Assembly (NCBI GenBank): GCA_032718475.1
Contig: JAUCBJ010007669.1
Coordinates: 1-40,372 of the forward strand
DNA: 40,372 nt
Source: Nemertoderma westbladi
Lineage: Eukaryota; Animalia; Xenacoelomorpha
Direction: 5' to 3'
Below the pieces are notes generated by a model. It was not told the origin of the DNA and did no database searches. It worked only from the letters and a program-made list of their open reading frames with translations. Of the stretch, positions 19,244-40,372 are shown one piece after another. The position numbers were made by a program, and so were the translations under genes. Every line of letters starts with the position of its first letter. The stretch's first letter is position 1.

Positions 19244-20100
19244 TGGGAGAGAGGGGTGGAAACTGGACGCAAATCCAACCTTGGCAAATCAATGTTAAAT
19301 TCTCAATTCAGGGAAAGGAGCAGGTTACAATGGCACGTTATTTTAACCAAAACAATAAACTAAGCACAATAGAATAGGTTACAGTTTTATTTGTTAGAAT
19401 TATCAGCTGTTATTTAGGTAAAGCTCTATTGTAGGCTGTGGCTCTGTTTAAGCTTAGCTGAGCCAAGACGACAGACATTAGGATGGGAACACGAACACAC
19501 CATATTATCCTTCCCCTATTCATTTCAATGGTAGCCAGCTTGTCTTTCCCGCACTGGGGGTAGACCATTGCCATTGGTTAGCTGTATGCTATTGTAATAC
19601 AAAGAGAGCGGCAGAATAAAGAGAAATATGCCGACCTCACTAATAATGGGCTGGTCCCACAGGTCGCTTTAAGGTAGGTGGTACAGTTTCAAGGGCGCGA
19701 GTCCCTAGTCGCTCGCCCATAGTCTGTCATGGAGTTCCTGTATTAGTTTCAGACACTTTCACTCAGTATCCTAGTGTCCAGGAAGTTGGGAGTTGAGTGT
19801 GGGTGGGTGGATTGGTGGCCCCCACGCAACACCGCAGTGTCGGGTGACTACAAAACAAAGATCAACGACCCAAATAATAAGGACCTGTACAAATACAAAA
19901 CACATGTGTTAACTTTCGTTTATTGTTTTGGTTCCCCAACACGCCTCTGTAACCTGCTTCTTTACTAACCTGCTCCTTTAAATGGCAATGTGACCTCACG
20001 CTCTCTGGCAATGGGACCTAAAGCTCTTTGGAACCTAACGCTCTTTGGGACGTAACGCGACTTTACCTCTTTGTTTTGTACAGGTCACAATGTACCATTG

Positions 20101-22319
20101 GGATCTAGGACACTTCCCCCACGGACACTTGCCCCCCGGACACTTCCCCCTCCAGTTAAAGTGTTAAAATTAATCTGGGCGCATCAAAGCAATAAACAAA
20201 AGTTAAAGATGGTTACAGGACAAATTGTATCTAGACTAGTTTTTTCAAAATTATAAAAGAAACATTTTTATAGTCAAATTTTGTTTGTTTTTCTTTTAAT
20301 TCCTTTAATTCTTTTAATTTCTTTTAATTGGGGGCTGCCGCCCCCAAACCCCCGCTTCTTTTGTTGGGGGCTGCCTTCCCCAAACCCCCGCTTCTTTTGT
20401 TGGGGCTACCGCCCCCAAACCCCCGCTTCTATTCTTGGGGGCTGCCGCCCCCAAACCCCAGCTTCTTTTCTTGGGGGTTATCGCCCCCAAACCCCGGCAT
20501 TTCACTGAGTGCCCGTGGTGAAAGACTTAAGACCACTTTGAAATAATTAATTCATGTTTGTATCATCAGATAATAAATTGACTAAGCCTAAAGTAGGAGC
20601 TGTATTGAATGTTAACCAATTTAATATATAAATTACTACAATATTATATAATTCAACAAAATCCTATTAAAAATATTGCAAGTAACCAGGAAATTTAATA
20701 TGTAGTGTGTATAATTAGGAGCCCGCTTGGCTTAGGAGCCCGCTTGACAGCGGGATACTTTCTGTAAAAATCTCAGGATACATTACACTGACTGACTGAC
20801 TGACATACTGACTGATAATTATCTAGGTTAAGGCACTTCCTGCCTGGCGATTTTGATGAAATTTTGCAAGTACATTGCTTTGGTGGTTCATAATCGCGTT
20901 ACAAAATTTCAGATCGATTCTATGTGTGGTATTCGATATATTTAGTTTTTTGACATTGTTTTGTCGCGAAATTAAAAGCAATGGTAAAATAACAGCTGGT
21001 GTTCATGATGAAATATGGCTTAATATGTTATACACAGTCATAGAAAAACGTGTTGGTTGCCAAGTTTTACTAGTAGGCTATAAGGAAAGGCAATGTTTAC
21101 TCACACATAAGCTGTTGGTTTCTAATGTATTACCCCATAAGCTGATTGCTCTCCCAGTGCTTCCTAAGGGTATATCTACAATAAGGTTACTCACTCTGCT
21201 ATGTTAGGGGGTGGATCAGGAGAATGAATTTTAGTTACACAAAGCAGTGTGTTGTGTCCTATTGCAGTCGATACTCACTGTGGATTGCAAAATGTTTTAT
21301 AGTTGACCTACACTATAATACAGTAGTTGCATATATTTAAGGAGCCCGCTCAGGCCTACCGCCTAAGGAGTACCTATATTACATCTTCACATAGAATTCA
21401 CTGGGAAGAGATATTCCGCTTGACGACGGGGTAATACCTATAGAAGGAAACTAAATTTGTTATTTGGCTCTATTCGTTGTTATTTATCTGGTTGTGCATC
21501 ATGGGCATTTTTTATAAATATTCGGTAATCGCATCTTATATCTTGTAAACGTTCTTGATAATGAAATTATTTGCTTCATATTATATTTTTGTTAGTGGTA
21601 GCTAAGTTGCATTTTTTATTATGTGGGGCGAGCCACAAAGTCAGCTAGCCTCACGCCTTGCAGTTTAGACAATTTTAGTTTACTTACTGCTGACTGACAT
21701 AGTTCTTTGTAATAGTCTTGGCTAGGATTTTTCCCCCGGGCTCCTTCCAGCCAGCTTGCTGGCTTTCTAGTATATATATCAATATGTAATGCTGAACACA
21801 GAATACAGGTCGACGCATGTCGATTTTACCATGGAGAGGTATAATTTTGATTGCAACAATAATATTCATCCCCAGCATCTGCTACAATTTGAAGAAGACT
21901 ATTACATAATAATACCTATAATTAAAACAATTAATTATTATAATTCTATAGTTAATAAAAACAGTATATCATTCCGGGGATGGAATTTATAGGTCATCTA
22001 ATATAATTAATTGTTTAAAGATTAGCAAACAATACGATGTAATTGCATTGATAAAACCCATAAATAAAACTTGGATATAAAATGTAAAATCGGGATGCAA
22101 AAGATCACTTTCTGAGCTACGAAAGGAAAATTGGATACAACTTATCTGGATACAAGCGGTCCGTTTACCTTACAAAATGAAAAATACGAATGTGCGAAGT
22201 TAAGAACAGTCGGGGGGGAAGTGTCCGTGGGGGGGGGGGGGGGGGAGTGTCTGGGGGGGAAGTGTCCGGGGGGGAACTGTCCGGGGGGGAAGTGTCCGGG
22301 GGGGAAGTGTCCGAACACC
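20101..22319 (+). mobile_element. Non-autonomous Mutator/foldback-type DNA transposon with tandem subterminal repeats
   Basis: GG...CC termini with inverted arrays of ggacacttccccccc; 9-bp TSD gtaccattg at 20092-20100 and 22320-22328; five internal ~36-bp ggggctgccgcccccaaacccccgc repeats at about 20327-20497. Confidence 0.9.
20701..21770 (+). mobile_element. Non-autonomous Helitron-like insertion
   Basis: Absent from the paralogous copy at 18656-19243. It lies between A (20700) and T (21771) with no TSD, ends in a GCCAGC-tt-GCTGGC hairpin plus TTTCTAG, and has (CTGA)n near the 5' end. The 5' end is TG rather than canonical TC. Confidence 0.75.
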
Positions 22320-23361
22320 GTACCATTGCTATTTAAAGGCGCAGGTTAGTAAAGGTGCAAGTTACAGAGGCGTGACAGGGGATTCAAAACAATTATTAAC
22401 GAAAGTTAACACATGAGTAGTAGGAGAAGAAGTGTCCCCACCATAGTCCTCCCTCTCTTGGGCTATGGGCATTCCATTCGGAGGCCTTTAAAAAATGCCA
22501 AATTCCGGTGCTAAATTGCGGTGCGCGCCATATGTCACCATCGGCAGTTGCCATCAACCAATTGTAGCGTAGCCTAACCTCGCGATGCCCGCCTTACTCG
22601 ACTACTGACTAACTAACCCTAATGTTATTCACCTTTTCGCCATGTTACCACCACCACCGCCATGCTACCACCACTGTATACTGTATATGGTGACGACAAC
22701 GACGACGTGGCCATCTACACGCATCACTCATATACCCTCCCTCGATATTATATATTATATTATATCGATTGCCAACTCCTCGACTGCTGTCGCCAAACCA
22801 ACAAACCAACCAACCAGCCAGTATGATACATGAAATTCCGCCACGCATCAACTACACGTTCTCACATTTCCATAGTAGTTACTCATCCTAACCGATCCCT
22901 CAGCATCTGTGCCATATTGAAAGGCTACTACTAACATTATACTGTGCGTTTTTATTATAATTATTGATTAGTATTACACACAACCCTATGTTTCATATTA
23001 TTTCACGTATTTCCTATCCACGCAACCATTCATCCACATTGCAACCCATCTCTTTTCTTATTCGTCGATGATTATGCCACATCCCATCTCTTCTACGTTG
23101 ATCATGCCACATCCACATCACGTATTCAGAAACTTATATATAACTGAATGTTTTTGTTAAAATTCATCACTTGTAATCTTCATGGTAATATATTGATACC
23201 ATATCTAATTTTTTGTTCTCACTCTGAAATTGTGTTATTTCCTTAATAATTTCTTCATTATCTTACTCGTTGTATATTCATTGGTCGGAAACACTCGAAT
23301 AAATGATACTGATTCCCACATTGGGTTTCTAAACGTAATTATGTAACTCAAAGGAAATCTC

Positions 23362-23443
23362 GTTTGGATGTGAGGGAGAATTTTTAGTATCGATGAATGA
23401 ATATTTATTCATCGATACTATAAATTCTTCCTTACATCCAAAC
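23362..23443. repeat. 82-bp near-perfect palindrome upstream of the PC4-like ORF
   Basis: gtttggatgtgagggagaatttttagtatcgatgaatgaat / atttattcatcgatactataaattcttccttacatccaaac, with four deviations. Confidence 0.92.
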
Positions 23444-23538
23444 ACAATTTTAGAGTGAGAACTATGGTGTCAATTTATTACAGCGATACGGTTAAAAATT
23501 TATCACTTGTAATATTTTTCGTATTTATTATTATTATT

Positions 23539-24555
23539 ATGGCCTTAACGCAAAAAACTGGAGCAACAAATAGCTGGAAATTTACTTACAATAAATATAC
23601 TTGTACCGCCGTTCACAGCAAGTATTTTATTGTGGAATCTCAGGAGGACAACGAATCAATTTGTTTTTCCCATCAAGATACCCGCTATTTGCTAGACATT
23701 CTAGAAACAACAACCAACAACCAACATCAATCCAGACCAGCAATTATACCAGGTAGGATATATGCCGCTCTTCGTTTTGCGCGGGGAAATTTGAATATTT
23801 CTATCAACCCCACATCGGGTGATGTTTACGTTCAGAAACAAGGCAAATGTAAAGTCCTCAACAAAGCTTTTACTGAAGTTCTAATTCAATACAGAGGGAA
23901 ATTATTGCAATTTCTCTCTCCACCGCTAGAGATTATTAGCGATCAATTCTACATTGAATTATCAAATCCAGAGTTTATTGGATTTGTAACAGCTTTTAAA
24001 GGAACCAACTATGTTGGCTTATGGAAAATCAGCGTCAGATACGCTGATAGTGTTGGTTTTAACTATTATACGGGTTTCAATTTGTCAAATCAGGAACTAA
24101 CCGTTTTGTTGCGAGAGTGGGACACTCAAATTGATGAACCAGACAAGCATCTTTTTGATAAAAATATCATTCAATTATCAGACCGTCTCAAAATGATTAA
24201 AACCAATAATAATAAAATTATTATCACCAACACCGATAATTCTACTGAAGTAGGAGCAGGTGGAAATTCTATTGAGTTGCATTACTTGAATGATAAAGCC
24301 CATATTAGTTTTCTCAAAGAGGCTATGGATGGCGTTTCTCTTATTGAAGCCAATGTAGATGGTTTTGTCCTTTTGGATAAACCTAAAGCATTCGTAGAGA
24401 TCCCATCACCTAATCCGGATGTTGAAGAGAGTTGCTCTCAACCGCAACAGGTCTTTCCTGAAATATTACCTCGGAAGCCAAGATCATATCGAGTAAATTT
24501 ACCAACGCATCACCTGCAAAGAAACAGAAAGTTGCTGTTAACCCAGCTCCAGTAG
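23539..24555 (+). CDS. Polinton-associated protein with a PC4/Sub1-like ssDNA-binding motif; C-terminus probably frameshifted and split by the Gypsy insertion (tail at 30097-30141)
   Basis: Likely ATG at 23539. GFVTAFKGTNYVGLWKI...TGFNLSNQELTVL resembles the PC4 pattern VxxFxGxxYVxIR...GIxLxxxQ. An alternative frame reads SPAKKQKVAVNPAPVDP|VTNSPWKPDYYPNM* across the insertion site. Confidence 0.55.
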   Translation: MALTQKTGATNSWKFTYNKYTCTAVHSKYFIVESQEDNESICFSHQDTRYLLDILETTTNNQHQSRPAIIPGRIYAALRFARGNLNISINPTSGDVYVQKQGKCKVLNKAFTEVLIQYRGKLLQFLSPPLEIISDQFYIELSNPEFIGFVTAFKGTNYVGLWKISVRYADSVGFNYYTGFNLSNQELTVLLREWDTQIDEPDKHLFDKNIIQLSDRLKMIKTNNNKIIITNTDNSTEVGAGGNSIELHYLNDKAHISFLKEAMDGVSLIEANVDGFVLLDKPKAFVEIPSPNPDVEESCSQPQQVFPEILPRKPRSYRVNLPTHHLQRNRKLLLTQLQ

Positions 24556-24560
24556 ATCCA

Positions 24561-27500
24561 TGTTAGATTATGTATTGTTAGGGCTCTAGTAGACCCTGGC
24601 TTGGTGGTGGTTAGATCCAACCTACTGGTCTTTTACCTACCGGTCCTCTTCTGGTATTCCGGTATTCAGTCTTTCCTATCTTCTAGGTCTGTAGGTACAG
24701 TAACCGTTACCGGTACCTACTGTACTGCTGTACTGATGTGCTGTAAGGTGGTGGGTGTGTTCGTTGGTCTGTTGGTTCATATTATTGTTTGATATGCTGT
24801 TCTGTATGTCGACCATTAATAAACTGATGCAGCTGGTATTCATTTATTTCCGATCCCAATATGGCGCAGTGATGTACTTGATGTTCCTACAACCCTATTC
24901 AAATGGTGGACATTCCAGCGCATTCAGCAGGTCAGATAATTCAATATTATTCTACCGGTCGCCTCTACTGATTCTGATCTAGGCCTAGCTACCTACCTAT
25001 ACTTCCGGTGGTGTACCTACTCCAGTACTCTTCTAAACTAAGCCCTTGGGACGGACAGTGGAGTGGCTCGCGGTTATCGTTGTCGTTGTGTAGCTACATC
25101 GTTGGCGAAAAACACAGCGACGACGGTACATCGGCGCTGAGGACCTTGCACTGTCCGGGGGCCGTGAGGGGTAGGCAGCGACGCCCGCTAGCCTAATTAG
25201 AAACTACCGGTACCTATTCACATTCAGCAGTCAGGCGGTATTCCAGTCTGCCAGTATTCGATAACTACAGATTTTGGCTGATTTGCATGCAAAAGTTTTG
25301 CACATTTTTGCAAAATTTTTTCTTTTCGGATTTTGCAAATTTTTTCGGATATTTAATTTCCTGAAATTTCTCTAATATTCAACAGTCAGATATGCCTACT
25401 AAAGCTGAACTCGAAACCGAACTGGAGGCTTTAAGAGAACAGTTGGCTGGTCGTGGTAATCCTGATCCCACCTCAGCTCTTCTACATGCTTTAGTTAAAT
25501 CACAACGCGATTTGGCTGATTCCTTAGCACAATCCCAAGCCCAAAATGCCCATCAATTTCAACAATTACTTGGTCAACCACATCAACCTGTAGTTCATCA
25601 GGCTGACTCAACCCCTCGTAATCTTCAAATTAAAGCACCAATTGCTTTAGAACCGGATTTCAGTTTAGCAAAATTTGAAACTTGGAAGTCGGTTTGGGCG
25701 GATTATTATTCTGCATTTCAGATGGATAGAATGGCTAGGGATAGGCAAATCTGTATTTTCAGGAGTTACCTTTCTATAGGTATGCGCTCTACACTGGAAC
25801 AAGTTATTGACATTCCTCCTGACACACATGATAATCCTTTAACAGTTCAGGTGTTAATAGATTGTATTCAAAGTTATTTTCGTGGTAAACGGAATATAGC
25901 CCTTGATTGTGTTCAGTTTGATAATAGGAAACAACGTCAAAGTGAAAATTTTGATAGCTACCTGGTTGCTATTAAAGATCTTGCTCGAGATGCTGATCTA
26001 TGTCGTCATTGTTTCGATCGGCGGTTGACTACTCGAATTATGTCTGGTATTTCTTGCGAGGACACCAGATCTAAACTTCTTGCATTGACTCCATTTCCTT
26101 CGCTTGAAGATGCTGTAAATCTATGTAGGTCTGAGGAATCAGCCCAAGCTGGAGTTCAGGATTTAAAAAACCCTTCAATCAACCAAGCTTCTCGACAATC
26201 TCGTTTTCACAACAAAAAGCCCTATAATTCCAGGCGCAACAATTCTTCTAAATCCAATTCCAGAAACAATTCTTCAACTACTGGCCCTATAGTTTGTTAT
26301 GGTTGTGGTAAAACAGACCATAAACGCGCTGACTGTCCAGCAAGGAACAAAGATTGTTCTTATTGTGGCAAGGAAGGCCACTTTGCCAATGTTTGTCGGT
26401 CTAAACAAAATAATTCGAATTCATCTTCAAAACCTAAGACAAAACCCATTAGCCGCATCACCCTCAATTTGGTTGGAAGCCATAATCGACAAGCTCCAAA
26501 AGTATTTCTGAACTTCTGTCATATCGCAACAGGACATTTATTCGGTTCTCTCAAAGCAACTCCAGATACTGGTGCTGAGGCCACTGTTGCCGGCTTAGAT
26601 TTTCTTCAGGCCCTTTCTATTGACAAAGAAAATTTACTTCCACCAGACCATGATGATCTTTCTGCTGCTAATGGTAGTCTTCTTTCATGCATTGGTCTCC
26701 TCCACACCACAATTTCCTATGGTGAATATTCAACTGATGAGCTTATCTGCATTTGTGAAGAAGTCAATGGAATTCTTTTGGCATGGTATACTTGTCAAAA
26801 CCTAGGAATTATTTCAAGTTCATATCCAGAACCAGTGGCAGAAATTCAGTCTGTTGCTTCTTCTAATTCTTCTAATATGTCACCAATTGGTATTAAAAAC
26901 TCAATTCCAACAACATCATTCAAGGTTGACTTCCATCTTTCTGATGAACCTTCTCCTTCAGAATGGGATACTGTTAAGCAGAAACTCATAAAAGCTTATT
27001 CTGATGTTTTTGACCAAGATGACAAACTTCGTCCAATGAATGGCCCACCCATGACCATTTCATTAAAAGATGATGCCCAACCATATGCTATTCATACAGC
27101 CAGGCAACTTCCTTTAGCCATTAGAGACTGGGCTAAAGCTCGCTTAGAGAAAATGGTTGAACAAGGTATTATTTGTCCAGTTCTGGATAACGAACCAACT
27201 GATTGGGTCCATCCTCTTGTTGTAGTTCCTAAACCAACAGGCGGTTGGCGCCTTTGTGTTGATTTGACTAAACTAAACAAACATGTTAAACGTCCGTATC
27301 ATCCATCGGTTACTCCTCGTGAGGCTGTCAATTCGATTTCTCCATCAGATTGCTTCTTTTCTTCATTAGATGCCAAGGATGGATATTGGCAGATACCTCT
27401 TGATGAATCCAGTCAGAATTTAACAACATTCATTTCCCCTTGGGGTCGATTCAAGTTTCTTAGGAATCCCATGGGATTAACTTCAGCACAAGATGTGTTT

Positions 27501-30091
27501 TGTCTTCGTGGTGATATAGCTTTACAGGGATTGGAAGGCATTGCTAAAGTAGTTGATGACATTCTAATTCATTCTTCCGATAGTCACAGTCATCTCGCAC
27601 ATATTATTGCCGTTCTGGATCGGTGTCGTGAACACCAGATCAGTCTCAAAGCTGCGAAATTCAAATTAGCTACCCCTGAGGTGTGCTTCGCAGGATATAT
27701 AATTAGTAGTAATGGTATTCAAGCGAATCCTTCCAAACTTAATGCTATTGCTGACTTTCCTGTTCCGACCAACATTTCTGAACTTAGATCTTTCTTGGGT
27801 CTTGTGAACCAACTAGGTGAGTTCACTTCCTCTATTAGCGAAAAGGCAGGCCCTCTTCGGGACCTTCTTAAAGTTAAAAATGTCTTCTGTTGGTCAGAAC
27901 CCCAAGAGACTGCATTTCAAGCAGTTAAGAAAGCTCTTGTAAGTCCTCCAATTCTACCTCCATATGATCCATTGCTGCCTACAATGTTGCAGACAGATGC
28001 TTCACGTTTGAAGGGTCTTGGTTTCTCACTTCTTCAGAAACACGACAGCTTTTGGAAACTCATTCAGTGCGGTTCAAGATTCATAACTGACACTGAATCA
28101 CGTTACGCAATGATAGAGCTTGAACTGTTAGCCGTCGTATGGGCTACTAGGAAGTGTAAGGTGTATCTTATGGGTCTCCCATCATTTGAGTTGGTAATTG
28201 ACCATAAACCTCTTCTTCCTATCCTAAACAATTATACTTTGGATATGATAGACAATCCCCGAATCCAACGTCTTAAAGAGAAACTCACCCTTTATTTCTT
28301 CAATACAACATGGAGAAAGGGAAGTGAACATTCCATTCCAGACGCACTTTCCCGTGCCCCTGTTTCGGATCCTACTCCAGAGGATATTCTTTGTGATACA
28401 GATGTCAATGACCATGTTTCCGCAGTCATTCGTCACGTGTCTACCTCAATTGTTGTTTCTGATGCTCCAAGTCATCTCAAGGATTCATATATTGAGTCTA
28501 TCCGATCATCTGCAAAGGATGATATTTCTTACATGGCTTTGGTGGATGCTGTTATTTCTGGATTTCCCTCAACATCCACACAATGTTCTGTGCACATACG
28601 CCCATTCTGGAATGTGCGACATCAGTTATCTTGTGAAGATAATCTTCTTTTATTAGGTTCCCGGATTGTAATTCCATCTTCCCTCCGCAAGAATGTCCTG
28701 AAGCACCTTCATGATGCTCATCAGGGCATTGAACGTTCTAAGAGGAGAGCTAGGCAAACTGTATTCTGGCCTGGTATCAATAGCGATATTACAAACATAG
28801 TCAATTCTTGTCCCCAGTGTCAACTTTATCAACCAAGTTTACCTAAAGAGTCTCTCCAAAGCGACCCTCATCCATGTCTTCCAATGGAGGATTGCTCTGC
28901 TGATCTTTTCTACTTCAGCACCTGGTCATACCTGGTTTATGTCGATAGATATTCTGGGTGGCCATGCGTTCATTCTTGGCGTGCCGATCCTTCCAGCTCT
29001 CAAGTTATTTCAGCTCTTCGAGGATGGTTCAAAGATTTCGGTATTCCAAAACGCCTTCGTTCTGATGGTGGTACACAATTTAATTCAGCACGTTATCATG
29101 ATTTCTTATCCGAATGGAATATCATCCCTGAGTATTCTACTCCTGAGTATCCTCAGTCTAATGGCCATGCAGAGGGGGCTGTAAAGGCCATGAAATCATT
29201 GATAAAAAAGTTAGATGTCAAAGGAGATCTAAACTCTACTTGCTTTGTTCGTGGTTTGCTGGAATGGAGAAATACTCCTAAAGAACATGGTATGTCTCCA
29301 GCTCAACTGTTGTTCGGTAGATCCCTCCGTTCTACTATACCAGCTCATTCGTCCACACTGGCAGGTGATTCATTCCCTATCCCTGGTCCTTCAACGTCTT
29401 CAGCAACTGAATCATATTATAATGATCATGCTCACGACTTAACCCCGATTCCTATTGGTTCCCGAGTTTGCATCCAGAGTGCACATTCCAAACTATGGAA
29501 CAAATCTGGTATCGTCCTTTCCCGTGGTACTAGGCGAGATTACCGGATAGAACTAGACAATGGTCGGGTGTATTGGAGAAATCGTCGTTATCTACGTTCC
29601 ATCCCAGATGACTCTTCTCTTCGTGATATAACGCCTCAAAAACAGGTACAGTTCGCTGATGATCTTCCCAGGCGCAGTTCGAGAACTCACAAGCAACCAG
29701 CAAGATTCGGAGTTCAATGAACTGACTTATTGGTGGTGGTTGGATTTTTTTTTTCAGTACAAATGTCTCCTACATTGTTCTTGGGGGAGATGTTAGATTA
29801 TGTATTGTTAGGGCTCTAGTAGACCCTGGCTTGGTGGTGGTTAGATCCAACCTACTGGTCTTTTACCTACCGGTCCTCTTCTGGTATTCCGGTATTCAGT
29901 CTTTCCTATCTTCTAGGTCTGTAGGTACAGTAACCGTTACCGGTACCTACTGTACTGCTGTACTGATGTGCTGTAAGGTGGTGGGTGTGTTCGTTGGTCT
30001 GTTGGTTCATATTATTGTTTGATATGCTGTTCTGTATGTCGACCATTAATAAACTGATGCAGCTGGTATTCATTTATTTCCGATCCCAATA
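24561..30091 (+). mobile_element. Full-length, apparently intact Gypsy (Mag-like) LTR retrotransposon
   Basis: 301-bp LTRs at 24561-24861 and 29791-30091, identical by eye; 5-bp TSD atcca at 24556-24560 and 30092-30096; PBS TGGCGCAGT at 24862; PPT GGGGGAGA before the 3' LTR. Confidence 0.97.
25392..29720 (+). CDS. Gag-Pol polyprotein, 1442 aa, single open frame
   Basis: Two CCHC knuckles, protease PDTGAE, RT (LDAKDGYWQIP, VVDD), RNase H (QTDAS, IELELLA), integrase (LHDAHQG, CPQC, SDGG, SNGHAE). Confidence 0.97.
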   Translation: MPTKAELETELEALREQLAGRGNPDPTSALLHALVKSQRDLADSLAQSQAQNAHQFQQLLGQPHQPVVHQADSTPRNLQIKAPIALEPDFSLAKFETWKSVWADYYSAFQMDRMARDRQICIFRSYLSIGMRSTLEQVIDIPPDTHDNPLTVQVLIDCIQSYFRGKRNIALDCVQFDNRKQRQSENFDSYLVAIKDLARDADLCRHCFDRRLTTRIMSGISCEDTRSKLLALTPFPSLEDAVNLCRSEESAQAGVQDLKNPSINQASRQSRFHNKKPYNSRRNNSSKSNSRNNSSTTGPIVCYGCGKTDHKRADCPARNKDCSYCGKEGHFANVCRSKQNNSNSSSKPKTKPISRITLNLVGSHNRQAPKVFLNFCHIATGHLFGSLKATPDTGAEATVAGLDFLQALSIDKENLLPPDHDDLSAANGSLLSCIGLLHTTISYGEYSTDELICICEEVNGILLAWYTCQNLGIISSSYPEPVAEIQSVASSNSSNMSPIGIKNSIPTTSFKVDFHLSDEPSPSEWDTVKQKLIKAYSDVFDQDDKLRPMNGPPMTISLKDDAQPYAIHTARQLPLAIRDWAKARLEKMVEQGIICPVLDNEPTDWVHPLVVVPKPTGGWRLCVDLTKLNKHVKRPYHPSVTPREAVNSISPSDCFFSSLDAKDGYWQIPLDESSQNLTTFISPWGRFKFLRNPMGLTSAQDVFCLRGDIALQGLEGIAKVVDDILIHSSDSHSHLAHIIAVLDRCREHQISLKAAKFKLATPEVCFAGYIISSNGIQANPSKLNAIADFPVPTNISELRSFLGLVNQLGEFTSSISEKAGPLRDLLKVKNVFCWSEPQETAFQAVKKALVSPPILPPYDPLLPTMLQTDASRLKGLGFSLLQKHDSFWKLIQCGSRFITDTESRYAMIELELLAVVWATRKCKVYLMGLPSFELVIDHKPLLPILNNYTLDMIDNPRIQRLKEKLTLYFFNTTWRKGSEHSIPDALSRAPVSDPTPEDILCDTDVNDHVSAVIRHVSTSIVVSDAPSHLKDSYIESIRSSAKDDISYMALVDAVISGFPSTSTQCSVHIRPFWNVRHQLSCEDNLLLLGSRIVIPSSLRKNVLKHLHDAHQGIERSKRRARQTVFWPGINSDITNIVNSCPQCQLYQPSLPKESLQSDPHPCLPMEDCSADLFYFSTWSYLVYVDRYSGWPCVHSWRADPSSSQVISALRGWFKDFGIPKRLRSDGGTQFNSARYHDFLSEWNIIPEYSTPEYPQSNGHAEGAVKAMKSLIKKLDVKGDLNSTCFVRGLLEWRNTPKEHGMSPAQLLFGRSLRSTIPAHSSTLAGDSFPIPGPSTSSATESYYNDHAHDLTPIPIGSRVCIQSAHSKLWNKSGIVLSRGTRRDYRIELDNGRVYWRNRRYLRSIPDDSSLRDITPQKQVQFADDLPRRSSRTHKQPARFGVQ

Positions 30092-30296
30092 ATCCAGTTA
30101 CTAATTCTCCATGGAAACCAGATTATTATCCTAACATGTAAACCTGATCATAAGTTAAACTCTTTGAGGTTTCCAATACCCATAGGCGATTGGTGATTGG
30201 TGTTTGGTGATTGGTTTAAAATTATTTCACTCGCTAGCATTAAATGTTTAGATATAGTCAATATTTTATCATTTTTATTTTATCATTTTATCATAT

Positions 30297-32384
30297 GATC
30301 ATTCACATATTACAGGTAAATATATTGCGGCAGCCTGTAATAGTTGTAACCGAAGTTTATCATTGAAACAATACCTGTATGTACTTTGCGGGCATAATTC
30401 CAGTAATTATGATATACATTGTATATTACAAACCGGATTTAGAGATAAGAAATACACAGATTGGGATATAAGGGTTATACCGAGAAATACAGAACGATAT
30501 ATTTCAGTGAGTGCATTTATCCCAATTAAATACACTTCTAAAAAAATTGAGTTACGTTTCTTAGACACATATCAATTTTTAAGCTTTTCTTTAAGTAATT
30601 TAGTTGAGTGTTCAACAAAGGATGTAGCGAGTCATGATATAAGCTCAATTTTACCTATTACTCTACAAGAAATTAAATATTTTTATCCAAACTTGAATAA
30701 CTCAACAATTAAACGGAAAGGAGTATTTCCATACGAGTACTTGACAGATATAAATAAATTTAATGATACTGGTTTGCCGTCTATAAATAATTTTTTTAGT
30801 AACTTAAGTCAAAAAACATGCACAATTGAAGATTATAGGTTTGCGGAATTATCATGGGTACAATTCGACTGTGTGAATCTCAAAGATTATCTTTTAGCCT
30901 ATTTAAAACTCGATGTTTGTTTGCTTGCTGATATATTTGAGAATTTTAGGAATGTTTGTAAACAAAATTACGATTTAGAAGCGGTTTTTTACTGTAGTAT
31001 CGCGTCATTTACCTATGATTGCGCACTAAAATATAATAAATGTAAAATAGAATTAATAAAGGATTATCAGACATATAGAGATTTTGAAAAATCAATTAGG
31101 GGTGGTGTTTCATTTTGTCGAAAGCATTATATAGAATCAAATATACCAGGAACAAGTACATATGATTCTACTAAGGAAGAATGCCATATTTTTAATATTG
31201 ATTTCAACTCTTTATATTCTGGGAATTTAAGTAAAAAACTACCCACCTCACAATTCAAAGAAGTAAGTATTAAACATTTAGAGAATGCAATTCCAGAAAA
31301 ACTAATCGAGTACTTGGTAGATTTAGACATTGATGGATCTACTGGATATTTTTTAATATGTGATTTAAATTATCCCAAAGCTATTCACGATCAAACATTA
31401 CAATTACCGTTAGCTCCAGAGCATTTAAGTATAAATGAATCAATGCTTTCACCTTATATGAGGGAACAATTTAATAACTTATTGATACAAAGAGGTACCT
31501 CCCGTAAATATAAGATGCCTATGCCAAAACTCTTGCTGACGCAATTTGATAAAGAGTTTTATCATTTAAATTTGAAACTGTTAAAATTTTATATAAAACA
31601 TGGATTAATTGTTACTAAACTACATAAATTATATTCTTTTCAACAAGAATTTGTATTTAAAAATTACATAGATTTTAATATTAATCAAAGGCGACTAGCA
31701 AAAAGTTACATTGAAACAGCTGTCGCGAAATTGCTTAATAATTCGTTATTTGGTAAATCAATAGAAAAGATAAGAGATCGATGTAACTTTCGTATCACAA
31801 ATAGCAATAATAAATGCGACCAATTGGTAAATCGTATTAATCATGAACAATTTATAATATACAATAATACATTATCGGGACATTTATTAGTGAAAGACTC
31901 TGTAACTCTCGATAAGCCTATATTTATTGGTAGCACTGTGTTGGACTTGGCTAAATTGGATATGTATGAGCTGTTCTACAATAAATTGCTACCTATTGAG
32001 AAAGAATTAAACTGCCGTATTGAAATTGCTGCATCAGATACAGACTCTTTAATAGGTTGTTACTATAATACATCGCAGAATAATTTTTTAAAAGCATTAA
32101 TTAAAAATAATATGTTAGATACATCCAATTACCCTAAGGATCACCCTCTCTACAGCGATAAAAATAAATCGAGACTTTATTACTGTAAAGATGAACTAGC
32201 TTCATGTGAAATTAAACAAGCAGTATTTTTAAGACCAAAATTATATTCAATTTTGGAATGGAATAACAAAAATATTCGTAGAGCAAAAGGTATTACAAGA
32301 GTTGTTGTGGAAACGAATATTACACATGAAGAATATTTAAAAGCATATAACTCAAATGAAGAAATAAAAAAAACATACACAGAT
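30297..32384 (+). pseudogene. Protein-primed family B DNA polymerase (Polinton-type), N-terminally truncated and interrupted by BEL/Pao
   Basis: In-frame DHSHITGKYIAAACNSCN from 30297, then GHNSSNYD (Exo II), RKGVFPYEY, YLKLDV (Exo III), IRGG, DFNSLY (A), KLLNNSLFGK (B), DTDS (C), LRPKLY and AKG. Confidence 0.95.
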
Positions 32385-35300
32385 TAAATGTGTTGACGCC
32401 TCGGTCTAAGTTTGTAAATGTTTTTGGGTTCGTAATATGATGACGGATATTAAGAAATATAAAATGAATGAGTTGATGATAATAAGACATAGTTTAATAT
32501 TTTATAATAATAATTGACGATCGCACTCTCATTACACTCCTAATGTATATCATAATGCTACCTAATTGATAATAATATCCTATAAAAAAGCTACGATATT
32601 TTATACTACTATATTTTATTATAATATGTTTCATGTGCCTATCACAGAAAGTTATATCCAATAGGATTTCATACACTGGGTGAAAAGTAAGGAACAGAAA
32701 ATGATTGAGGATTCACATCAAACTTATAACTCTCAATAACTACAGTAAGAAACTGGCTAAATTAATCGTGCATAGAGATAATGATTCCTGTCCTAAGGTA
32801 GACTAAAAATGTTGTACAGTAAGCAGCATTACAAATGACAGGTCGTGATTGACATATTATTCATGCTGAGTCTACATGTGCTTCATGTTTACATATCGAA
32901 TAATAATAAATAAAAAACGCATCTGAAATAACATGTGCCAAGGGGCAATTCATGCATGTCTTCTAATCTCGGGAAAATATGTCAAATAATTTTGGTGTTA
33001 CATGGTCACAAACGTTCTACCGTTAACATAGCCACCCCTCTCAACCAGAGCCATTTTGGGCCCTTTCTAAAAGGCACAGCTTAACTGTAGGACGTATCAA
33101 CGATTTGGAAGCAGCAGTACGGATTTCAACCATGCGTACTCTGCCATCCTTTCCAGGTAGAGCTCGTACGACTCTGGCTAATGGCCAGTGTCCTCTCGGT
33201 AAGTGCCCGTCAACTACCAGAACGAGATCGCCGATAGCAAGATTACGACGTTCCCTATTCCAAATAGCTCTCACTGTTAATGTGGGTAGGTATTCCCTTT
33301 GGAAACGGTTCCAAAAGTGGTCGGTAAGCAATTGGCATTGGCGCCAACGCTTACGTAGCAACATATCACCATCGTTGAATTCACCGGGTGATGCATTCTC
33401 ATAACTTTGTCCAATAAGGAAGTGACTCGGCGACAATGCATTAAAGTCATCAATACTATCGCTGACTGGAGAAATGGGTCGCGAGTTGAGAATGGCTTCA
33501 ATTTCTGTCAACACGGTATAGAGTGTATCATCATGGACACACTGCTTCATGATTGTGGCACGTAAAGATTGTTTCACTGTGCGCACCAAGCGTTCCCATG
33601 AACCACCAAAGTGTGGTGAAAGTGGTGGGATTCTTGTCCATGAGATATTGAGGTGCGCCAGGGTGCTACGTATCGCGCCGTGATCGATGGCATTGAGGGC
33701 TTCCCGCAGCTCTCTTTCGGCGGCAATAAAGTTGGTTCCGTTATCAGAATGAATAACAGATGGATATCCCCTTCGAGATATGAAACGACGAAGTGCCATA
33801 ATAAAGGCATCTGCATTTAGATTATAGGCAACTTCTAAATGAACCGCGCGAGTTGTCAAACAGGTAAATAAACATACCCAACGTTTTTCTCTGCATCTTC
33901 CTCTCTTAACTGCTATAGGTCCGAGATAATCTAGACCTGTCTCAAAAAAGGCCGGTTTCAGTACTGCCAATCGACAAGAGGGTAGGTCTGCCATATACGG
34001 AGGTGCAGCCCTTGCGTTGCTTCTACGGCACACTACACACTTGTCAATAACAGAACGAACTGCGGCTTTACCTCTGGTGATCCAGACGTTTTCCCTTAAT
34101 GACGCCAATACATGATGTGGTCCTTGGTGGGCTAATTTGCTATGGGTTGACCAGATCATGATCTTCGAGAGAGCATCATTATGACTCAGTATTGCTGGGT
34201 GTTTAGTAGCAATTGGTAGATCTGAATTGCCCAGTCGTCCACCCACTCTCAAAATACCCGCTTTGTCAATGAATGGGTTGAGTGGCACAAGTGGACTATC
34301 TCTTTGTAGAGGTCGGCCTGCGTTTAATGCACTAATTTCTGCAGACCATGTCTTCTCTTGCTGCAAGCGAATGGCTAACATTCCTGCCTGATCCAATTCG
34401 GTGGCTGATGGGTCAGCCACCCCTAGTGGCATCGTCGGATGTTCCTTGCGCTGCCGGAAGCGCCGAACCCATCCTAAACATCTGGCTATGCACCCACATA
34501 ATCGATTCCAATTGGAGAATCGACTAAAGTCAATAAGTGTTGTTGTGTTACTTTCTACTATTGTAGCAGCAATAACTACAGATTTCTTAAGTTCACAGTC
34601 TTCGTTATGAACGGGCTCTGAACTGCTTTGTGAGGGCCAGCTTGCCTCAGGTTCCCACAGGAAATCTGGCCCTTGAAACCAGCGATCTGACATGGTTGCC
34701 GATGAAAGCGATAAACCTCGTGTCGGATCATCCGCTGGATTTTGTGAACTAGATATGTGATGCCATTGAGATACGTCACTGTGGTCATGTATCTCTGCTA
34801 CGCGGTTTGCTACGAATGGTGTGAATCTGCGAGATTCACTTCCAATGTACTGTAATGCCGTTTTAGAATCAGTCCAATAGAAACGCTGAGAAATTGGTAA
34901 TTCGATCTCTGATTGGATTAAATTCGCGACTCGAACACCCATTACACAGGCTTGGAGTTCCTTGCGAGGAACTGATATAGTGCGCAAGGGGGCTAGACGA
35001 GATTTTCCCATAATGAGGCAGCATTTAACTTGCCCATTTTCATCAACAGCTCTGAGATATCCATCCAAAAGCAACGTCAGAAGCATCACAAAATATATGA
35101 AGTTGGAGTGACGCAATGTATTGTTGAGAAGGAAAATAAACCCGAGGGAGTTTAATATTTTCTACGTAGGTGAGATCGTTTAACCACCTTAACCACACAC
35201 TCAGTAGCTCTGTTGGTATGAGATCGTCCCATCCAACTCCTATCCGCCACAACTCTTGTATGACTAATTTAGCTGGTAATATGAACGGCGTTAATAATCC

Positions 35301-38300
35301 CAATGGATCAAAAATTGAGCTAGTTATCAAAAGTATTTTTCTTTTAGTGAAATGGGAACTGTCTTTACTCGATGCGACAGTTGTGAATGAAATAACATCT
35401 TCATTCGCATCCCACTGAACACCAAGAGCACGTTGCGTGGGGAGTCCATCGCAATCTAAATTAACAATGGATCGTGTGAGTTCGGTAGAAGGTATCGAAG
35501 TAAGAACTTCACGTGAATTACTCACGAATTTAGTAAGGCGAAATCCCCTGTTGTTCAGCATAGCAATAAGTTGGCTTAACAATTTAATTGCTACGGTGGT
35601 CGAAGTCACAGACGTCAGTAAATCATCCGAATAAAAGTCTCGTATAACCGTAGCTACAGTTAGTGCATCAAATGAAGAAGCTTGATCGGTAGCAGCACGT
35701 CGCAATCCCGTGATTGCACATGTTTGAGAGGAAACAGCGCCAAAGATATGGCGAGTCATCTCATAAACATTTGGCGGGTCGACTCTATTGTCTCCTCGCC
35801 ATAGAAACCGCAAAGCGGGTCGGTCACTCTCTTGAACGCCCACTTGGTGATACATAGCCTCTATATCACCAATAATAGCAACTAAATGTTGACGAAATCT
35901 CAACAAAATTCCGATAAGGCTATTCAATAAGTCAGGTCCGGTCAATAACTGATCATTTAACGATGTGCCACTGTACTTTGCAGCGGCATCGAAAACTACT
36001 CTAAGTTTTCCAGGCTTGTTTGATTGGGTTACCCCATGGTGGGGTAAATACCAAGTTACTTTAGATGGAATCAGTGACTCCTCTTTTGTTAGCTTACGGG
36101 CAAACCCTTTGGATTCGTATCCATCTATTATTTCAGTATAGCGTTTAGCTAAATCATGGTCTTTGTCTAATTTCTTCTCAAGGGATAAAAGTCTATGAGT
36201 AGCCATGGGGGTGTTGTCTGGAAGACGTGGTGCATCACGTCTCCAGGGCAACCCCATCTCATAACGACCATCAACGAACTTGATCGTTCGTTCAATGATT
36301 TGTAAGGCTCTTGTGTCTTCGACTGATCGAGAAGCACAAGAATCATGAGTAGTACCAAATGCATCAGTACGCCAAAACATCTCGAGACGTTTGTCAAGTC
36401 TATCTGTTTCAGAAACAGTGGTCGTATAAACAACCAATTCGTCATTTTTAGACGTGGTAGTTTGAGATCTTCCTAAAAGATACCAGCCCAGTGCCGAACA
36501 GTGCGCTTGGGGTTGTCCTGATGCACCCACATGTCTTTCAGCAGTATTCAGAGCATCAGGTACATTGGCCCCAATAACTACTGCTACATCTGGTAGTTCA
36601 TTGCAGGATAAATCAAGGCCCTGCAAATATTCAAATTGACTATCATTGCTATCAAAGGCGAATGATCGGGATGGTGCATTCATTGAAGGAAGCACGTATG
36701 CTTCATCAACATAGAAAATTGTGTTATATGGATGATGCCCTGATATGGAAAAGTAAACACGCTTTCGTTTTTGGTCTCCACTTTTTCCAATCAGGCCGTT
36801 TAATTTTATACATTTAATTTCCCCATCTAAATTGAGTGCATCAGCGATATCCTTACGTATGAAGGAGGTCTCACTGCATGCAACAAGAAGGGCATGAGTA
36901 TTAAGAGTTTCACCGTTGGGAGAAATAATCTTAATAGGCACAGTAGGTAAAAACACAGATGTTTCGTTATTTGTTGTAGTATTACAACTTACGTGCTTGG
37001 AATCTTGCCTGTGTGATTTAAAATAGTCATGCAATAGCGTGTGGTGTCGCTGATTGCAGTTAGACACATGACAAGAATGAATTGATGAACATTTAGATGC
37101 GTGATGATTCTGTTTGAGACAGTTGGTGCAAAGAGCATTGTCTAACGCTACTTTCCCCTTATTATCGGGTGTCATGCCAATAAATTTTGAACACCTATAT
37201 ATTAAATGGGATCCATTGCAAACCAAACATATATCACTAATATGTCCTGATGTTTCATTGGGTAAGCCTTTTGATACCGTTGGTTTGAACTGAGATATGT
37301 AATTTTGCCGTGAATCTGGCTTTGTTGTTTTATTAGATTCAGTAATAACTGAAGAAGCGTAATTTGATATTAACGGCGCTGGCTGTCTGAATGGAACCGA
37401 TTTTTGAACAACATTGCGGGGGTATTTAGATTCGGTTTAGATTTGGCATTAGATGCTGAACTCCAATCCTCTATTGGCATAACTGAAGGTTCAAAAGTAA
37501 CCTTTACTCTTTGCCTCAGCCATTCTTCAAAATGTACCAAGGTCGGTTCTTCCCTTGGTCTGATACGCTGACAAGTTTCGCACCAACGTTCTCTTAAACG
37601 AAAAGGGAGTCTATTATATGCACCGCGTAATATATCCGCGTAATATAAACACTCTCTAAACGTCCCATACGTTTTAAGGTATGCACCCCTACGGTAACGG
37701 ATATTGAAAATGTTCTTAGAGCTGACTTATTGTCAGCAGGAACCATTGAGCCGGATGTTATTGAGGAGGTGAAGGCCCTCACGATTAGGCTAGGGTGTGC
37801 AAACTGCTCTTTGAGCATTTGCAGTGCAACCGCATATGCCTTCCCATCGGAACCTAAACCTTTTACCACCTCTCTAGCATCAGCACTCAAGTGGTTCAAT
37901 AGTTGTGCCATGCGCCGGTTATCATCATTATAAATTTTATTATGCACATGTGTGTAAAAATTACTTATAAAGTCCGGCCATTTTAAAGGATTTCCATCAA
38001 ATTTAATAATGGCAATGGGAGGTATTCCTCGATCCTCTTCCAATCGCAATAGCGACCTCTCTAATGAAGCATTAGGGGTGATTGTATGTAGAAATGTTTC
38101 TTCGTAAGGGATTAGTCTATCCACCCAGGCATCCACAGGCTCCTGGGGTGTATGAAATTGCTTGTTAACGAAACCAGGAAAATCGCTTATTTCATCTTTG
38201 TTCTCACTAGGAAACATAATCGGCGCGGGTTTGGGTATAAATACTGGCCGAGTAGGATCCAAAACAGGTTGATTGAATGTGGAAAGTTTAGGCCTATTAA

Positions 38301-39754
38301 CGTTAGATGCACTCACCAAAAGCGGATTTGTGGATGTGTCCATATGGGGTGCATTATAATTCATAAGTGGTGATATTTCAGCACCCGCTGTATTTTTTCG
38401 CATTACGGTATTGGCATGGCAATAACTAACCGATGTTGAAGTCGATGTGACAAGTTGATTTGGAAGAATTGAAGTCGGGTGTTGATTTAACTCGGGTTCT
38501 TGTATGGGTTCCTGTTGCAGGAGTACATTACCAGGTTCAGTTGATCCACGGGAAACCGGGTGGTCGGTAGAATGTACGGAGACTTCATCATCAAAGTCAT
38601 GAAGTCTTGTTTCGAGATTTTCATCACCCTCTTCGACGTCTTCTATTAGTAGCTTTGCCTCCAGGGCTTTCATTGCGGCTTCCTGGTCGGCTTCCAGAGT
38701 CTCAGCATTGGCCTCTACCGTCGCCTTTTCAACTCGCAGTTGGGCTCTCGCTCGAGCCTGATCCGCTGCTAGCTGGGAAAGACGTGCACTTCGTGCAGCA
38801 TGTCTTGCACGTGACGTGATCGTGCATGACGAAGCCGAGTGGGTTTGATGACTCGTTTGTGTTATGTGGCTTCCTAGGGCAGAAATTCCACGAGTAATGG
38901 GAGAATCCAGGGGTAACGATGCAGGTACGAGTTTCGGAGTAGGATCCTGTCCCGTTGAGATCCGTCTTTGAGAGGTTCGTCGCAGGGCAACTCGCCGGCT
39001 GATACCGCCAGGTTCACTCATCTTGAAAGGGTGTTTCAGTAATTATTTGGGAACAAATCCCACAGAGTCATCGTAGTTAGTGGGTTGATGTATCCGGTTC
39101 GAAGGACCAATAAATGTGTTGACGCCTCGGTCTAAGTTTGTAAATGTTTTTGGGTTCGTAATATGATGACGGATATTAAGAAATATAAAATGAATGAGTT
39201 GATGATAATAAGACATAGTTTAATATTTTATAATAATAATTGACGATCGCACTCTCATTACACTCCTAATGTATATCATAATGCTACCTAATTGATAATA
39301 ATATCCTATAAAAAAGCTACGATATTTTATACTACTATATTTTATTATAATATGTTTCATGTGCCTATCACAGAAAGTTATATCCAATAGGATTTCATAC
39401 ACTGGGTGAAAAGTAAGGAACAGAAAATGATTGAGGATTCACATCAAACTTATAACTCTCAATAACTACAGTAAGAAACTGGCTAAATTAATCGTGCATA
39501 GAGATAATGATTCCTGTCCTAAGGTAGACTAAAAATGTTGTACAGTAAGCAGCATTACAAATGACAGGTCGTGATTGACATATTATTCATGCTGAGTCTA
39601 CATGTGCTTCATGTTTACATATCGAATAATAATAAATAAAAAACGCATCTGAAATAACATGTGCCAAGGGGCAATTCATGCATGTCTTCTAATCTCGGGA
39701 AAATATGTCAAATAATTTTGGTGTTACATGGTCACAAACGTTCTACCGTTAACA
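32385..39754 (-). mobile_element. Full-length BEL/Pao LTR retrotransposon with frameshifted gag-pol
   Basis: 644-bp terminal repeats at 32385-33028 and 39111-39754, identical by eye; TSD cagat(t) at 32380 and 39755; PBS TGGTCCTTCGAACCGGAT at 39092-39109; PPT GAGGGGTGGCTA. Confidence 0.97.
33041..39021 (-). pseudogene. BEL/Pao gag-pol in three main ORF pieces (37594-39021, 35043-37226, 33041-35116)
   Basis: Gag FDGNPLKW and CCHC knuckles; RT YLPHHGV, KLRVVFDAAA, FYSDD; RNase H FCDAS; integrase GLDYLGP, SDNGTNF, GGSWERLV. Frame breaks near 37620, 37420 and 35065. Confidence 0.93.
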
Positions 39755-39974
39755 CAGATTTCAATCTAAATTACATCGCATTTATACCTTAAAGCAAAAT
39801 AAATTTGCACTCAGTAGCTTTGATGATAAACTTTATTGGGTTAATAAAAATCAATCACTTCCTTGGGGGCACTATAAAACAAACCTCAAAAAACATATAA
39901 AAATATCAAATATACCAATTTATGAAGAACCAAAAGACGATAGTGTTGATGATGAATTATCAAATAGTAAATAA
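39755..39974 (+). pseudogene. C-terminal segment of the pPolB beyond the BEL insertion
   Basis: RFQSKLHRIYTLKQNKFALSSFDDKLYWVNKNQSLPWGHYK matches the typical Polinton pPolB ending (H.IYT..QNK.ALS.FDDK...LPWGHY). Stop codon at 39972-39974. Confidence 0.9.
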
Positions 39975-40372
39975 AAATATAAGTTGTAAGCAGATCATTT
40001 ATGGACTTAATTTAAAAGAATTAAAAAATCAATTGACTGGTAAAATTGTACTCAAACCTAATCAGTTTAAATATAAGGTATTTGGTGCAACCATATTAAT
40101 GTTTACAAATGGACGAATAACAATTCTCGGTAGAAAATATAATTTTAATAAAGTGAAAAAGCATATATTCGAAAAAACAAACATTAATTTGATTTTTAAA
40201 TCAATCAATTTGTGTACTTATATTTTTAGTATCGATACCGTAATTTATAGGTTACTTATAAACAATATCGGGTTTTATGTTATATTTGATAATGTTAAAC
40301 TAGAAATTTCATACGAGCCCGAAATATTCAATAACTGTAAAGTCAGAATAAATAATATTGTTGTTGTTTGCT
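39949..40372 (+). CDS. TATA-binding protein (TBP)-like ORF, open to the window end
   Basis: Manual translation gives 141 stop-free codons: MMNYQIVNKNISC...LNLKEL...ATILMFTNGRITILG...FKSINL...SYEPEIFNN.... These match TBP repeat motifs (TALIFSSGKMVCTG, SYEPELF). The ORF overlaps the pPolB end by 26 nt. Confidence 0.82.
   Translation, partial: MMNYQIVNKNISCKQIIYGLNLKELKNQLTGKIVLKPNQFKYKVFGATILMFTNGRITILGRKYNFNKVKKHIFEKTNINLIFKSINLCTYIFSIDTVIYRLLINNIGFYVIFDNVKLEISYEPEIFNNCKVRINNIVVVC

What the first reader, a model, noticed from the sequence alone, without database searches (positions are those of the whole stretch)
22416..40372. Hidden Polinton-like virus cassette: PC4-like protein, pPolB and TBP-like protein, split by two LTR elements
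Seen: removing the Gypsy (24561-30091) and BEL (32385-39754) elements at their TSDs leaves a compact, intronless, co-oriented cassette after an AGTAGT terminus. Known: pPolB and 5'-AG termini mark Polintons/Mavericks, whose standard core is integrase, packaging ATPase, adenain protease and capsid proteins; TBP and PC4 are host Pol II general factors. Inference: this endogenous linear DNA virus lineage may carry its own basal transcription-factor mimics to redirect host transcription. I cannot tell from sequence alone whether this combination has been described.
Basis: partly seen in the sequence, partly recalled or inferred. Interest (0 to 1): 0.88.

Follow-up and report, generated by a model that had tools for sequence, protein, structure and literature searches.

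The report
Dead Polinton copy carrying TBP gene
A broken copy of a virus-like jumping element (a Polinton), interrupted by two retrotransposons, carries a divergent TATA-binding-protein-like gene that likely helps such elements switch on their own particle genes, plus a gene weakly predicted to encode a single-stranded-DNA binder that more likely serves replication than transcription.

Summary
The anatomy is real. An element starts exactly at 22416 (AGTAGT; an empty copy of the target repeat in the window diverges at that base). Gypsy (24561-30091) and BEL (32385-39754) have identical LTRs and 5-bp TSDs. The host element is a likely multi-copy, defective Polinton. The TBP-like ORF (Pfam E 2.7e-4, cut by the window end) is supported by a TBP (E 4e-12) 1 kb downstream of pPolB in L003, a Polinton with the full core gene set from the same pPolB clade. 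ORF1 is a real gene, but PC4 is only weakly supported (low-confidence fold matches to PC4/Whirly/Pur, Z up to 5.3); a replication SSB role fits better than a coactivator role. TBP and PC4-like genes did not co-occur in 82 related loci. A TTAAGC box precedes L003 particle genes (weak statistics). A TBP label exists in Starrett 2021 (Fig. 5 legend), and this scan has reported Polinton TBPs, once with PC4, on other DNA. New variant of a known kind.

The parts
22416..40372 (+). Left part of a defective endogenous Polinton/Maverick copy; continues past the window end
22416..22430 (+). Left terminus AGTAGTAGG..., inserted into a host repeat; the 6 bases before it (CACATG) are the predicted TSD, untestable here
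   Evidence: empty paralogous site at 20000..19841 diverges exactly here; one X3 contig breaks at 22416
23355..23450 (.). Near-perfect 96-bp palindrome holding the only TATAAA of 22416-24560 (23419), 45 nt before ORF1's first ATG
   Evidence: z = -9.8 against 200 shuffles
23464..24555 (+). ORF1 (ATG 23464 or 23536): real gene, predicted tandem beta-sheet/helix modules, weakly PC4/Whirly/Pur-like; 3' end probably off-frame in this copy
   Evidence: one homologue P0132, E 1.3e-4; fold; indel
24561..30091 (+). Gypsy LTR retrotransposon, single 1451-codon frame, identical LTRs, TSD ATCCA (24556-24560 / 30092-30096)
30092..30296 (+). Element sequence 3' of ORF1, ending at an inferred internal deletion junction near 30297
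30297..32384 (+). pPolB, middle part (HNH-like remnant, exonuclease motifs II and III region, polymerase motifs A, B, C); N-terminal ~450 aa absent, no start codon
   Evidence: 762 hits at E <= 1e-10, best 39% identity
32385..39754 (-). BEL/Pao LTR retrotransposon inside pPolB, identical 644-nt LTRs, TSD CAGAT (32380-32384 / 39755-39759)
39755..39974 (+). pPolB C-terminal tail (~70 codons), separated by BEL
   Evidence: matches pPolB frames of L031 (E 3.8e-10) and L076 (E 3.2e-9)
39949..40372 (+). TBP-like ORF (ATG 39922, 39949 or 39952), overlapping the pPolB stop, cut by the window end within repeat 2
   Evidence: Pfam PF00352 E 2.7e-4, 21.1 bits; L003 TBP E 7.5e-5; alignment

Best explanation
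This is a dead, internally deleted copy of a likely multi-copy Polinton (Maverick/adintovirus-type element), interrupted by a Gypsy and a BEL retrotransposon, whose family carries a divergent TBP-like gene that likely acts as a private promoter factor for the element's own particle genes and an ORF1 that likely acts as the single-stranded-DNA-binding helper of its polymerase. Shown: terminus, both insertions, pPolB homology and truncation, TBP homology, and TBP next to pPolB in a relative with integrase, ATPase, protease and capsid-cluster genes. Inferred: ORF1 and TBP would be made early from host-type TATA promoters; ORF1 would coat the strand displaced during protein-primed replication; the viral TBP would bind a non-canonical T(T)AAG-type box before capsid, packaging and integrase genes and recruit host TFIIB and Pol II through its retained YEPE stirrup.
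For: Terminus and insertions. pPolB; clade with L003, L004, L005, L018, FastTree support 0.98. L003 gene set: rve+chromo E 3e-11, A32-like ATPase E 7.5e-4, pX E 1.4e-7, TBP E 4e-12 with two repeats; its protease cluster matches adenain E 2.6e-9; 3 of 10 members of its capsid cluster match Pfam DJR-like. Window TBP keeps F40, F52, F127 and YEPE(122-125), shared with L003 and matching the TBP motifs printed; the roles of these residues (DNA intercalation, TFIIB contact) are recalled. The Thr of the first repeat's G-x-x-x-I-T-G motif is Leu in both, a hint of altered DNA reading. L003: TAAGC lies within 100 nt upstream of 8 of 14 ORFs, corrected P 0.019 over 1024 five-mers, with TTAAGC before capsid, ATPase, integrase and a penton-like gene and no TAAG before pPolB. 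ORF1: 12 of the top 30 fold rows are titled PC4/Sub1, Whirly/PBF-2, MRP or Pur, hitting two separate regions; the best profile match to Polinton PC4-like proteins falls on residues 148-191. The PC4-like superfamily includes a phage T5 replication factor (PMC7549692, passages).
Against: No function is tested. The window holds no particle genes, so the box comes only from L003; the P value is not corrected for the 13 loci tried (about 0.25 if it were), and the second TBP-bearing locus L060 shows no significant five-mer. The box idea came from earlier scan notes. Window TBP scores below Pfam's cut-off (21.1 vs 22.9) and finds no TBP in PDB by itself or in NCBIfam. Both ORF1 models have mean pLDDT ~36; Foldseek finds nothing at E <= 0.001; VIA Z of at most 5.7 is in the range the tool calls common; a small profile of Polinton PC4-like repeats did not beat shuffles (91 of 1000 scored as high); HHalign probability was 2%. 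TATAAA before TBP is uninformative (41% of 100-nt windows there hold one). L004, in the same pPolB clade, has no TBP between pPolB and the next penton-like gene.
Confidence: 0.55

Rival explanations
1. One reading: TBP and a PC4-like coactivator form a two-part viral basal transcription module, with ORF1 stabilising the opened promoter.
For: Both genes are in one element and co-oriented; human PC4 and MoSub1 are among the fold rows (Z 4.4-4.6).
Against: Among 126 ORFs scanned, TBP was in L003 and L060 and Pfam PC4-like hits were in L011 and L073, never together. ORF1 looks multi-module like Whirly/Pur; their adjacency to pPolB is partly due to a deletion.
Confidence: 0.12
2. The viral TBP is a decoy or general booster: it binds ordinary TATA boxes or titrates host TFIIB/TAFs, with no private promoter.
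For: The YEPE stirrup and Phe residues are retained; L060 shows no significant private motif.
Against: L003 shows TAAGC enrichment while canonical TATA[AT]A is not enriched in L003 (3 of 14) or L060 (1 of 12), although it is in 7 of the 15 other loci at P < 0.02 (motifs chosen after the fact).
Confidence: 0.2
3. The TBP-fold protein has lost any transcription role and is a repurposed DNA-binding or replication/packaging protein, or ORF1 is not PC4-like at all.
For: Very high divergence: no homologue by word search, sub-threshold Pfam score, failed folds.
Against: Two elements whose TBPs are only 30% identical keep the same Phe, Asn and YEPE positions.
Confidence: 0.13

Closest known systems
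Polintons/Mavericks of animals = adintoviruses (Starrett et al. 2021, PMC8502044; abstract and sections 3.1, 3.2, 3.4 read)
   Same: pPolB, AG-type terminus, insertion into host DNA; relative L003 has integrase, FtsK/A32 ATPase, adenain, capsid-cluster and pX genes. The missing PF03175 hit suggests the Beta PolB class (inferred).
   Different: Carries a TBP-like gene; TBP is not among the adintovirus accessory genes named in section 3.2. This copy is deleted and doubly interrupted; pPolB is at most 39% identical to anything found.
[quoted passage not shown] 5 legend; also bioRxiv 10.1101/697771 legends)
   Same: TBP-like gene in a midsize linear DNA virus with adintovirus-like PolB.
   Different: Only a legend label; the figure was not visible, so which element carries it is unknown to me. 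No residues, promoter or function are given in the passages read.
Beta/gamma-herpesvirus viral TBP mimics (KSHV ORF24; PMC12529657, PMC13345323, PMC4893493: search listing and start of abstracts only)
   Same: Proposed logic: a viral TBP mimic directs host Pol II to late viral promoters.
   Different: Analogy, not homology tested here. The Polinton protein is a small stand-alone TBP core; no partner activators were seen.
PC4-like superfamily: PC4/Sub1, Whirly/PBF-2, MRP1/2, Pur-alpha, phage T5 PC4 homologue (PMC7549692, passages)
   Same: Predicted strand-strand-strand-(strand)-helix modules; these proteins fill 12 of the top 30 fold rows.
   Different: No Pfam PC4 or Whirly hit; models are low-confidence; several modules in one chain rather than PC4's single module.
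VLTF3-carrying polintoviruses (PMC11131425, passage; L007 here, Pfam E 1.3e-16)
   Same: Polintons that carry a viral transcription factor.
   Different: A different factor, related to giant-virus late factors rather than to TBP.

Membership tests
Polinton/Maverick (adintovirus) | [quoted passage not shown] | tested here: met
   762 homologues at E <= 1e-10; groups with the pPolB of L003; motifs DFNSLY, NNSLFGKS, SDTDS present. Truncated in this copy.
Polinton/Maverick (adintovirus) | 5'-AG terminus with short tandem repeat (recalled) | tested here: met
   AGTAGTAG at 22416, junction fixed by an empty paralogous site.
Polinton/Maverick (adintovirus) | Matching terminal inverted repeat and 6-bp TSD at the far end (recalled) | not testable with these tools
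   Right end lies outside the window; no genome is held.
Polinton/Maverick (adintovirus) | rve integrase, packaging ATPase, adenain, capsid proteins in the same element | not testable with these tools
   Not in the window, which ends inside TBP. Present in relative L003.
Beta-class adintovirus PolB | Divergent from the pfam03175 type, with N-terminal OTU domain (PMC8502044 section 3.1) | tested here: inconclusive
   No PF03175 hit for the window ORF, but some homologues list it; the N-terminus is deleted here.
TBP (PF00352) | Profile score at or above 22.9 bits | tested here: inconclusive
   21.1 bits, E 2.7e-4 on a protein cut by the window end; relative L003 46.2 bits.
TBP (PF00352) | Two repeats with intercalating Phe pairs and the acidic YEPE stirrup (roles recalled) | tested here: met
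   F40, F52, F127 and YEPE retained; the fourth Phe position lies past the window end and is present in L003.
TBP (PF00352) | Saddle fold, TATA-type DNA binding, TFIIB recruitment | not tested
PC4/Sub1 (PF02229) | Profile match to PF02229 | tested here: not met
   No hit for ORF1, its four segments or P0132 at E <= 10.
PC4-like superfamily (PC4/Whirly/Pur fold) | Beta-beta-beta-beta-alpha repeat fold | tested here: inconclusive
   pLDDT ~36 models; e.g. 3k44 Z 5.0, rmsd 3.2, 66 aligned; 1l3a Z 5.2, rmsd 4.8, 101 aligned; 6ycs Z 4.5, rmsd 3.7, 53 aligned; similar for the N-terminal module.
PC4-like superfamily (PC4/Whirly/Pur fold) | Single-stranded nucleic acid binding | not testable with these tools
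   Needs a binding assay.
Herpesvirus-type viral TBP late switch (works like) | Non-canonical box before late genes | tested here: inconclusive
   TAAGC 8 of 14 in L003 (corrected P 0.019 within the locus); nothing significant in L060; no late genes in the window.

The most novel reading that the evidence does not exclude
A Polinton lineage encodes a minimal two-protein pre-initiation module: a re-specified TBP that reads a private TTAAGC-type box and a multi-module PC4-like protein that holds the promoter open, so that a ~20-kb element without RNA polymerase runs its own early-to-late switch on host Pol II. The TBP-only version of this switch is more probable (about 0.45).
Probability: 0.12. 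Interest if true: 0.8.

Novelty: new variant of a known kind. Interest (0 to 1): 0.5.

Why it matters
How Polintons time their capsid and integrase genes without an RNA polymerase is open. A TBP with a private box would give a direct test (binding and reporter assays with an intact natural TBP) and would parallel the viral TBP mimics of large herpesviruses in a much smaller element. TBP-like genes in two distant pPolB branches (L003 and L060) suggest repeated capture or loss. A candidate SSB would fill an expected gap in protein-primed replication. This copy itself is a dead fragment; its value is as a further, divergent lineage.

Tried and rejected
No genome is held, so the downstream part and other copies could not be read. 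Word-based homologue searches for ORF1 and TBP found nothing; PDB sequence searches for ORF1 gave nothing relevant; the window TBP alone gave no TBP in PDB, the three-sequence profile only weak TBP rows, E 0.21-2.6. IMG/VR scans with window pPolB, L003 TBP and L060 TBP found no relatives. The ESM Atlas gave no answer. Foldseek on the ORF1 model returned only beta-propellers and the like at E > 0.001. The pPolB profile found no polymerase in PDB at E <= 1, only EndoVII and zinc fingers; the capsid profile found nothing in PDB. No RNA holder was listed; X5 is only guessed to be RNA and has depth about 5, so nothing is concluded on expression. The depth profile at the terminus was too fragmented to show a step. 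Look-up of earlier findings by pPolB sequence gave nothing. Rejected: AGTAGT as chance; a whole pPolB after removing BEL; a spliced pPolB 5' exon inside the window (no tblastn match); a captured host TBP gene (no long N-terminal tail, overlaps pPolB, closest match is a Polinton ORF). No complex prediction was run.
Full report
Observation. The two LTR elements are as described. Gypsy spans 24561-30091 with one 1451-codon frame and TSD ATCCA; BEL spans 32385-39754 on the minus strand with TSD CAGAT. Both LTR pairs have no mismatch, so both insertions are likely recent. Contigs of public DNA runs join across each insertion, so copies without them exist. The start at 22416 is real: AGTAGT occurs 33 times in the window, but a second copy of the flanking repeat matches up to the base before 22416 and then differs.

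The pPolB frame begins at the HNH-like motif. In the 29 of 48 top relatives that start with Met, exceed 1100 aa and hold that motif, it lies at residue 377-480. The first Met is codon 396 of 709, no N-terminal pPolB match lies upstream in the element, and contigs of two runs carry other letters 5' of 30298. So this copy has an internal deletion of at least about 1.3 kb (inferred), and ORF1's closeness to pPolB is partly made by it. ORF1 also differs from most laid depth by a small indel near 24.49 kb. With BEL inside pPolB, the copy is dead. Summed contig depth over the element is 14,700-298,000 against 110-340 over most of the BEL body, and single sites differ in up to 30 contigs. The tool warns that depth is not copy number; I take it only as a hint of a large family. 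The host was not determined; BEL/Pao elements suggest an animal (recalled).

Relatives. pPolB has 762 hits, the best 39% identical. An alignment scan gave 82 loci: 2 from IMG/VR and the best 80 of 531 metagenome matches. In a FastTree tree of 100 sequences (99 of 125 candidates passed the length filter; only alternate proteins of P0001-P0060 plus nine chosen ones were offered; midpoint root) the window is the deepest branch of a clade with L003, L004, L005 and L018, support 0.98. L003 has integrase, ATPase, pX, a protease whose cluster matches adenain, and a capsid-cluster gene (L003's own capsid ORF has no Pfam hit, 3 of 10 cluster members do).

TBP. The window ORF matches PF00352 at E 2.7e-4, just under the cut-off, and is cut by the window end. 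Among 1692 ORFs of the 82 loci its only phmmer hit is the ORF 1 kb downstream of pPolB in L003 (E 7.5e-5), which is a clear two-repeat TBP (Pfam E 4e-12; all 35 PDB rows are TBP chains). The two share N8, P37, F40, F52, G55, G61, YEPE and F127. A Pfam scan of 126 of 401 kept ORFs found one more TBP, in L060, on another pPolB branch; a profile of the three found no further one. So 2 of the 14 loci of 10 kb or more show a TBP, though loci are partial. L004, in the window's clade, lacks TBP directly after pPolB, so the order is not fixed.

ORF1. It is a real gene: one homologue among 1.84 billion representatives (P0132, E 1.3e-4), aligning along most of its length. Pfam, NCBIfam, PHROGs and PDB sequence searches give no PC4. 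Two AlphaFold models have mean pLDDT about 36. These Z values are below what the tool treats as meaningful. Profile tests against Polinton PC4-like proteins were weak or negative. I put a PC4-like fold at about 0.6. Pfam PC4-like hits in relatives (L011, L073, both sub-threshold) are in loci where no TBP was seen. The superfamily includes a phage T5 replication factor (PMC7549692, passages), and protein-primed strand-displacement replication needs an SSB (established for phi29 and adenovirus; recalled). An SSB role is therefore more likely than a coactivator role.

Promoters. Following a lead from earlier scan notes, I looked 100 nt upstream of ORFs. Motifs chosen after seeing the data gave TTAAG in 8 of 14 L003 ORFs (background 0.12) and 4 of 12 in L060 (0.14), while canonical TATA[AT]A was enriched at P < 0.02 in 7 of the 15 other loci and in neither TBP locus. 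An unbiased five-mer test over 13 loci gave TAAGC in L003 (corrected P 0.019 within the locus, about 0.25 across loci), nothing in L060, ATATA and TATAT in L007 and TTGAA in L010. L003's TBP ORF was dropped from these counts by an overlap filter. In the window the only TATAAA of 22416-24560 lies 45 nt before ORF1. The window has no particle genes, so the switch cannot be tested on it.

Mechanism. Most likely (0.55): early host-driven expression of ORF1, pPolB and TBP; ORF1 as SSB; TBP as a promoter factor for particle and integrase genes with host TFIIB and Pol II. Anatomy and homology are shown; all functions are inferred.

Literature. Starrett 2021 (PMC8502044; abstract, sections 3.1, 3.2, 3.4 read) labels a gene 'TBP' in the Fig. 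5 legend only; the preprint has it in two legends. The one supplementary file held as text had no TBP, TATA or PC4; figures, and supplements of preprints, could not be seen and may map more TBP or PC4 genes. Term searches in five other Polinton papers found no TBP or PC4. Library searches for Polinton with TBP returned 5, 2 and 3 papers, with no title or abstract start on this topic; of these only the Starrett paper and its preprint were opened. For PC4, the 25 of 35 and 30 of 162 papers listed showed no PC4 count except PMC11662393, which I did not read. The library lacks most subscription papers. Herpesvirus TBP mimics were seen as search listings with abstract starts only. This scan has reported Polinton TBPs on other DNA several times, including one TBP-plus-PC4 case; those notes are leads, not support.

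Verdict. Observation partly confirmed, interpretation partly supported; new variant of a known kind; interest 0.5.

Noticed in passing
window 243-875 (+): Uninterrupted 210-codon frame matching GMP_PDE_delta (UNC119/PDE-delta family, E 2e-67); intronless host gene or retrocopy.
   Followed up: no
window 6414-8290 (+): Overlapping frames with a Ulp1-type protease (E 4e-7) and a weak PHD finger; probably a transposon remnant.
   Followed up: no
window 10453-14844 (-): Older, broken LTR-retrotransposon remnant with RT and RNase H.
   Followed up: no
window 18661-22415: Nested inverted-repeat elements with G-rich 15-nt tandem units; the Polinton inserted into one of these repeats, and an empty copy lies at 20000..19841.
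   Followed up: partly
window 24650-25279: Laid depth in the Gypsy 5' region is far above the Gypsy body (91,780 vs 680-3,600 in X1), with loose ends near 25070-25205: probably another high-copy repeat inside or shared with the Gypsy leader.
   Followed up: no
window 23355-23450: 96-bp palindrome around ORF1's TATAAA; may be a local fold-back event or a promoter feature.
   Followed up: partly
L060 8426-8911: A second, shorter TBP type (Pfam E 7e-8) in a Polinton from another pPolB branch; its 90% cluster has 33 members on contigs up to 21 kb.
   Followed up: partly
L003 7095-8943: Two small orphan ORFs between pPolB and TBP, and a 184-aa ORF after TBP that starts with a D-x-E motif resembling a DEDD nuclease (recalled); no Pfam, NCBIfam or PHROG hits.
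   Followed up: partly
L007 5447-6085; L076 751-1526; L043 3643-4284: Other Polinton cargo: VLTF3-like factor; BIR/IAP and dUTPase; deoxynucleoside kinase.
   Followed up: no
L001 (6543 nt): Small IMG/VR contig with terminal inverted repeats, pPolB and a parvovirus NS1-like helicase, like the bidnaparvovirus layout.
   Followed up: no
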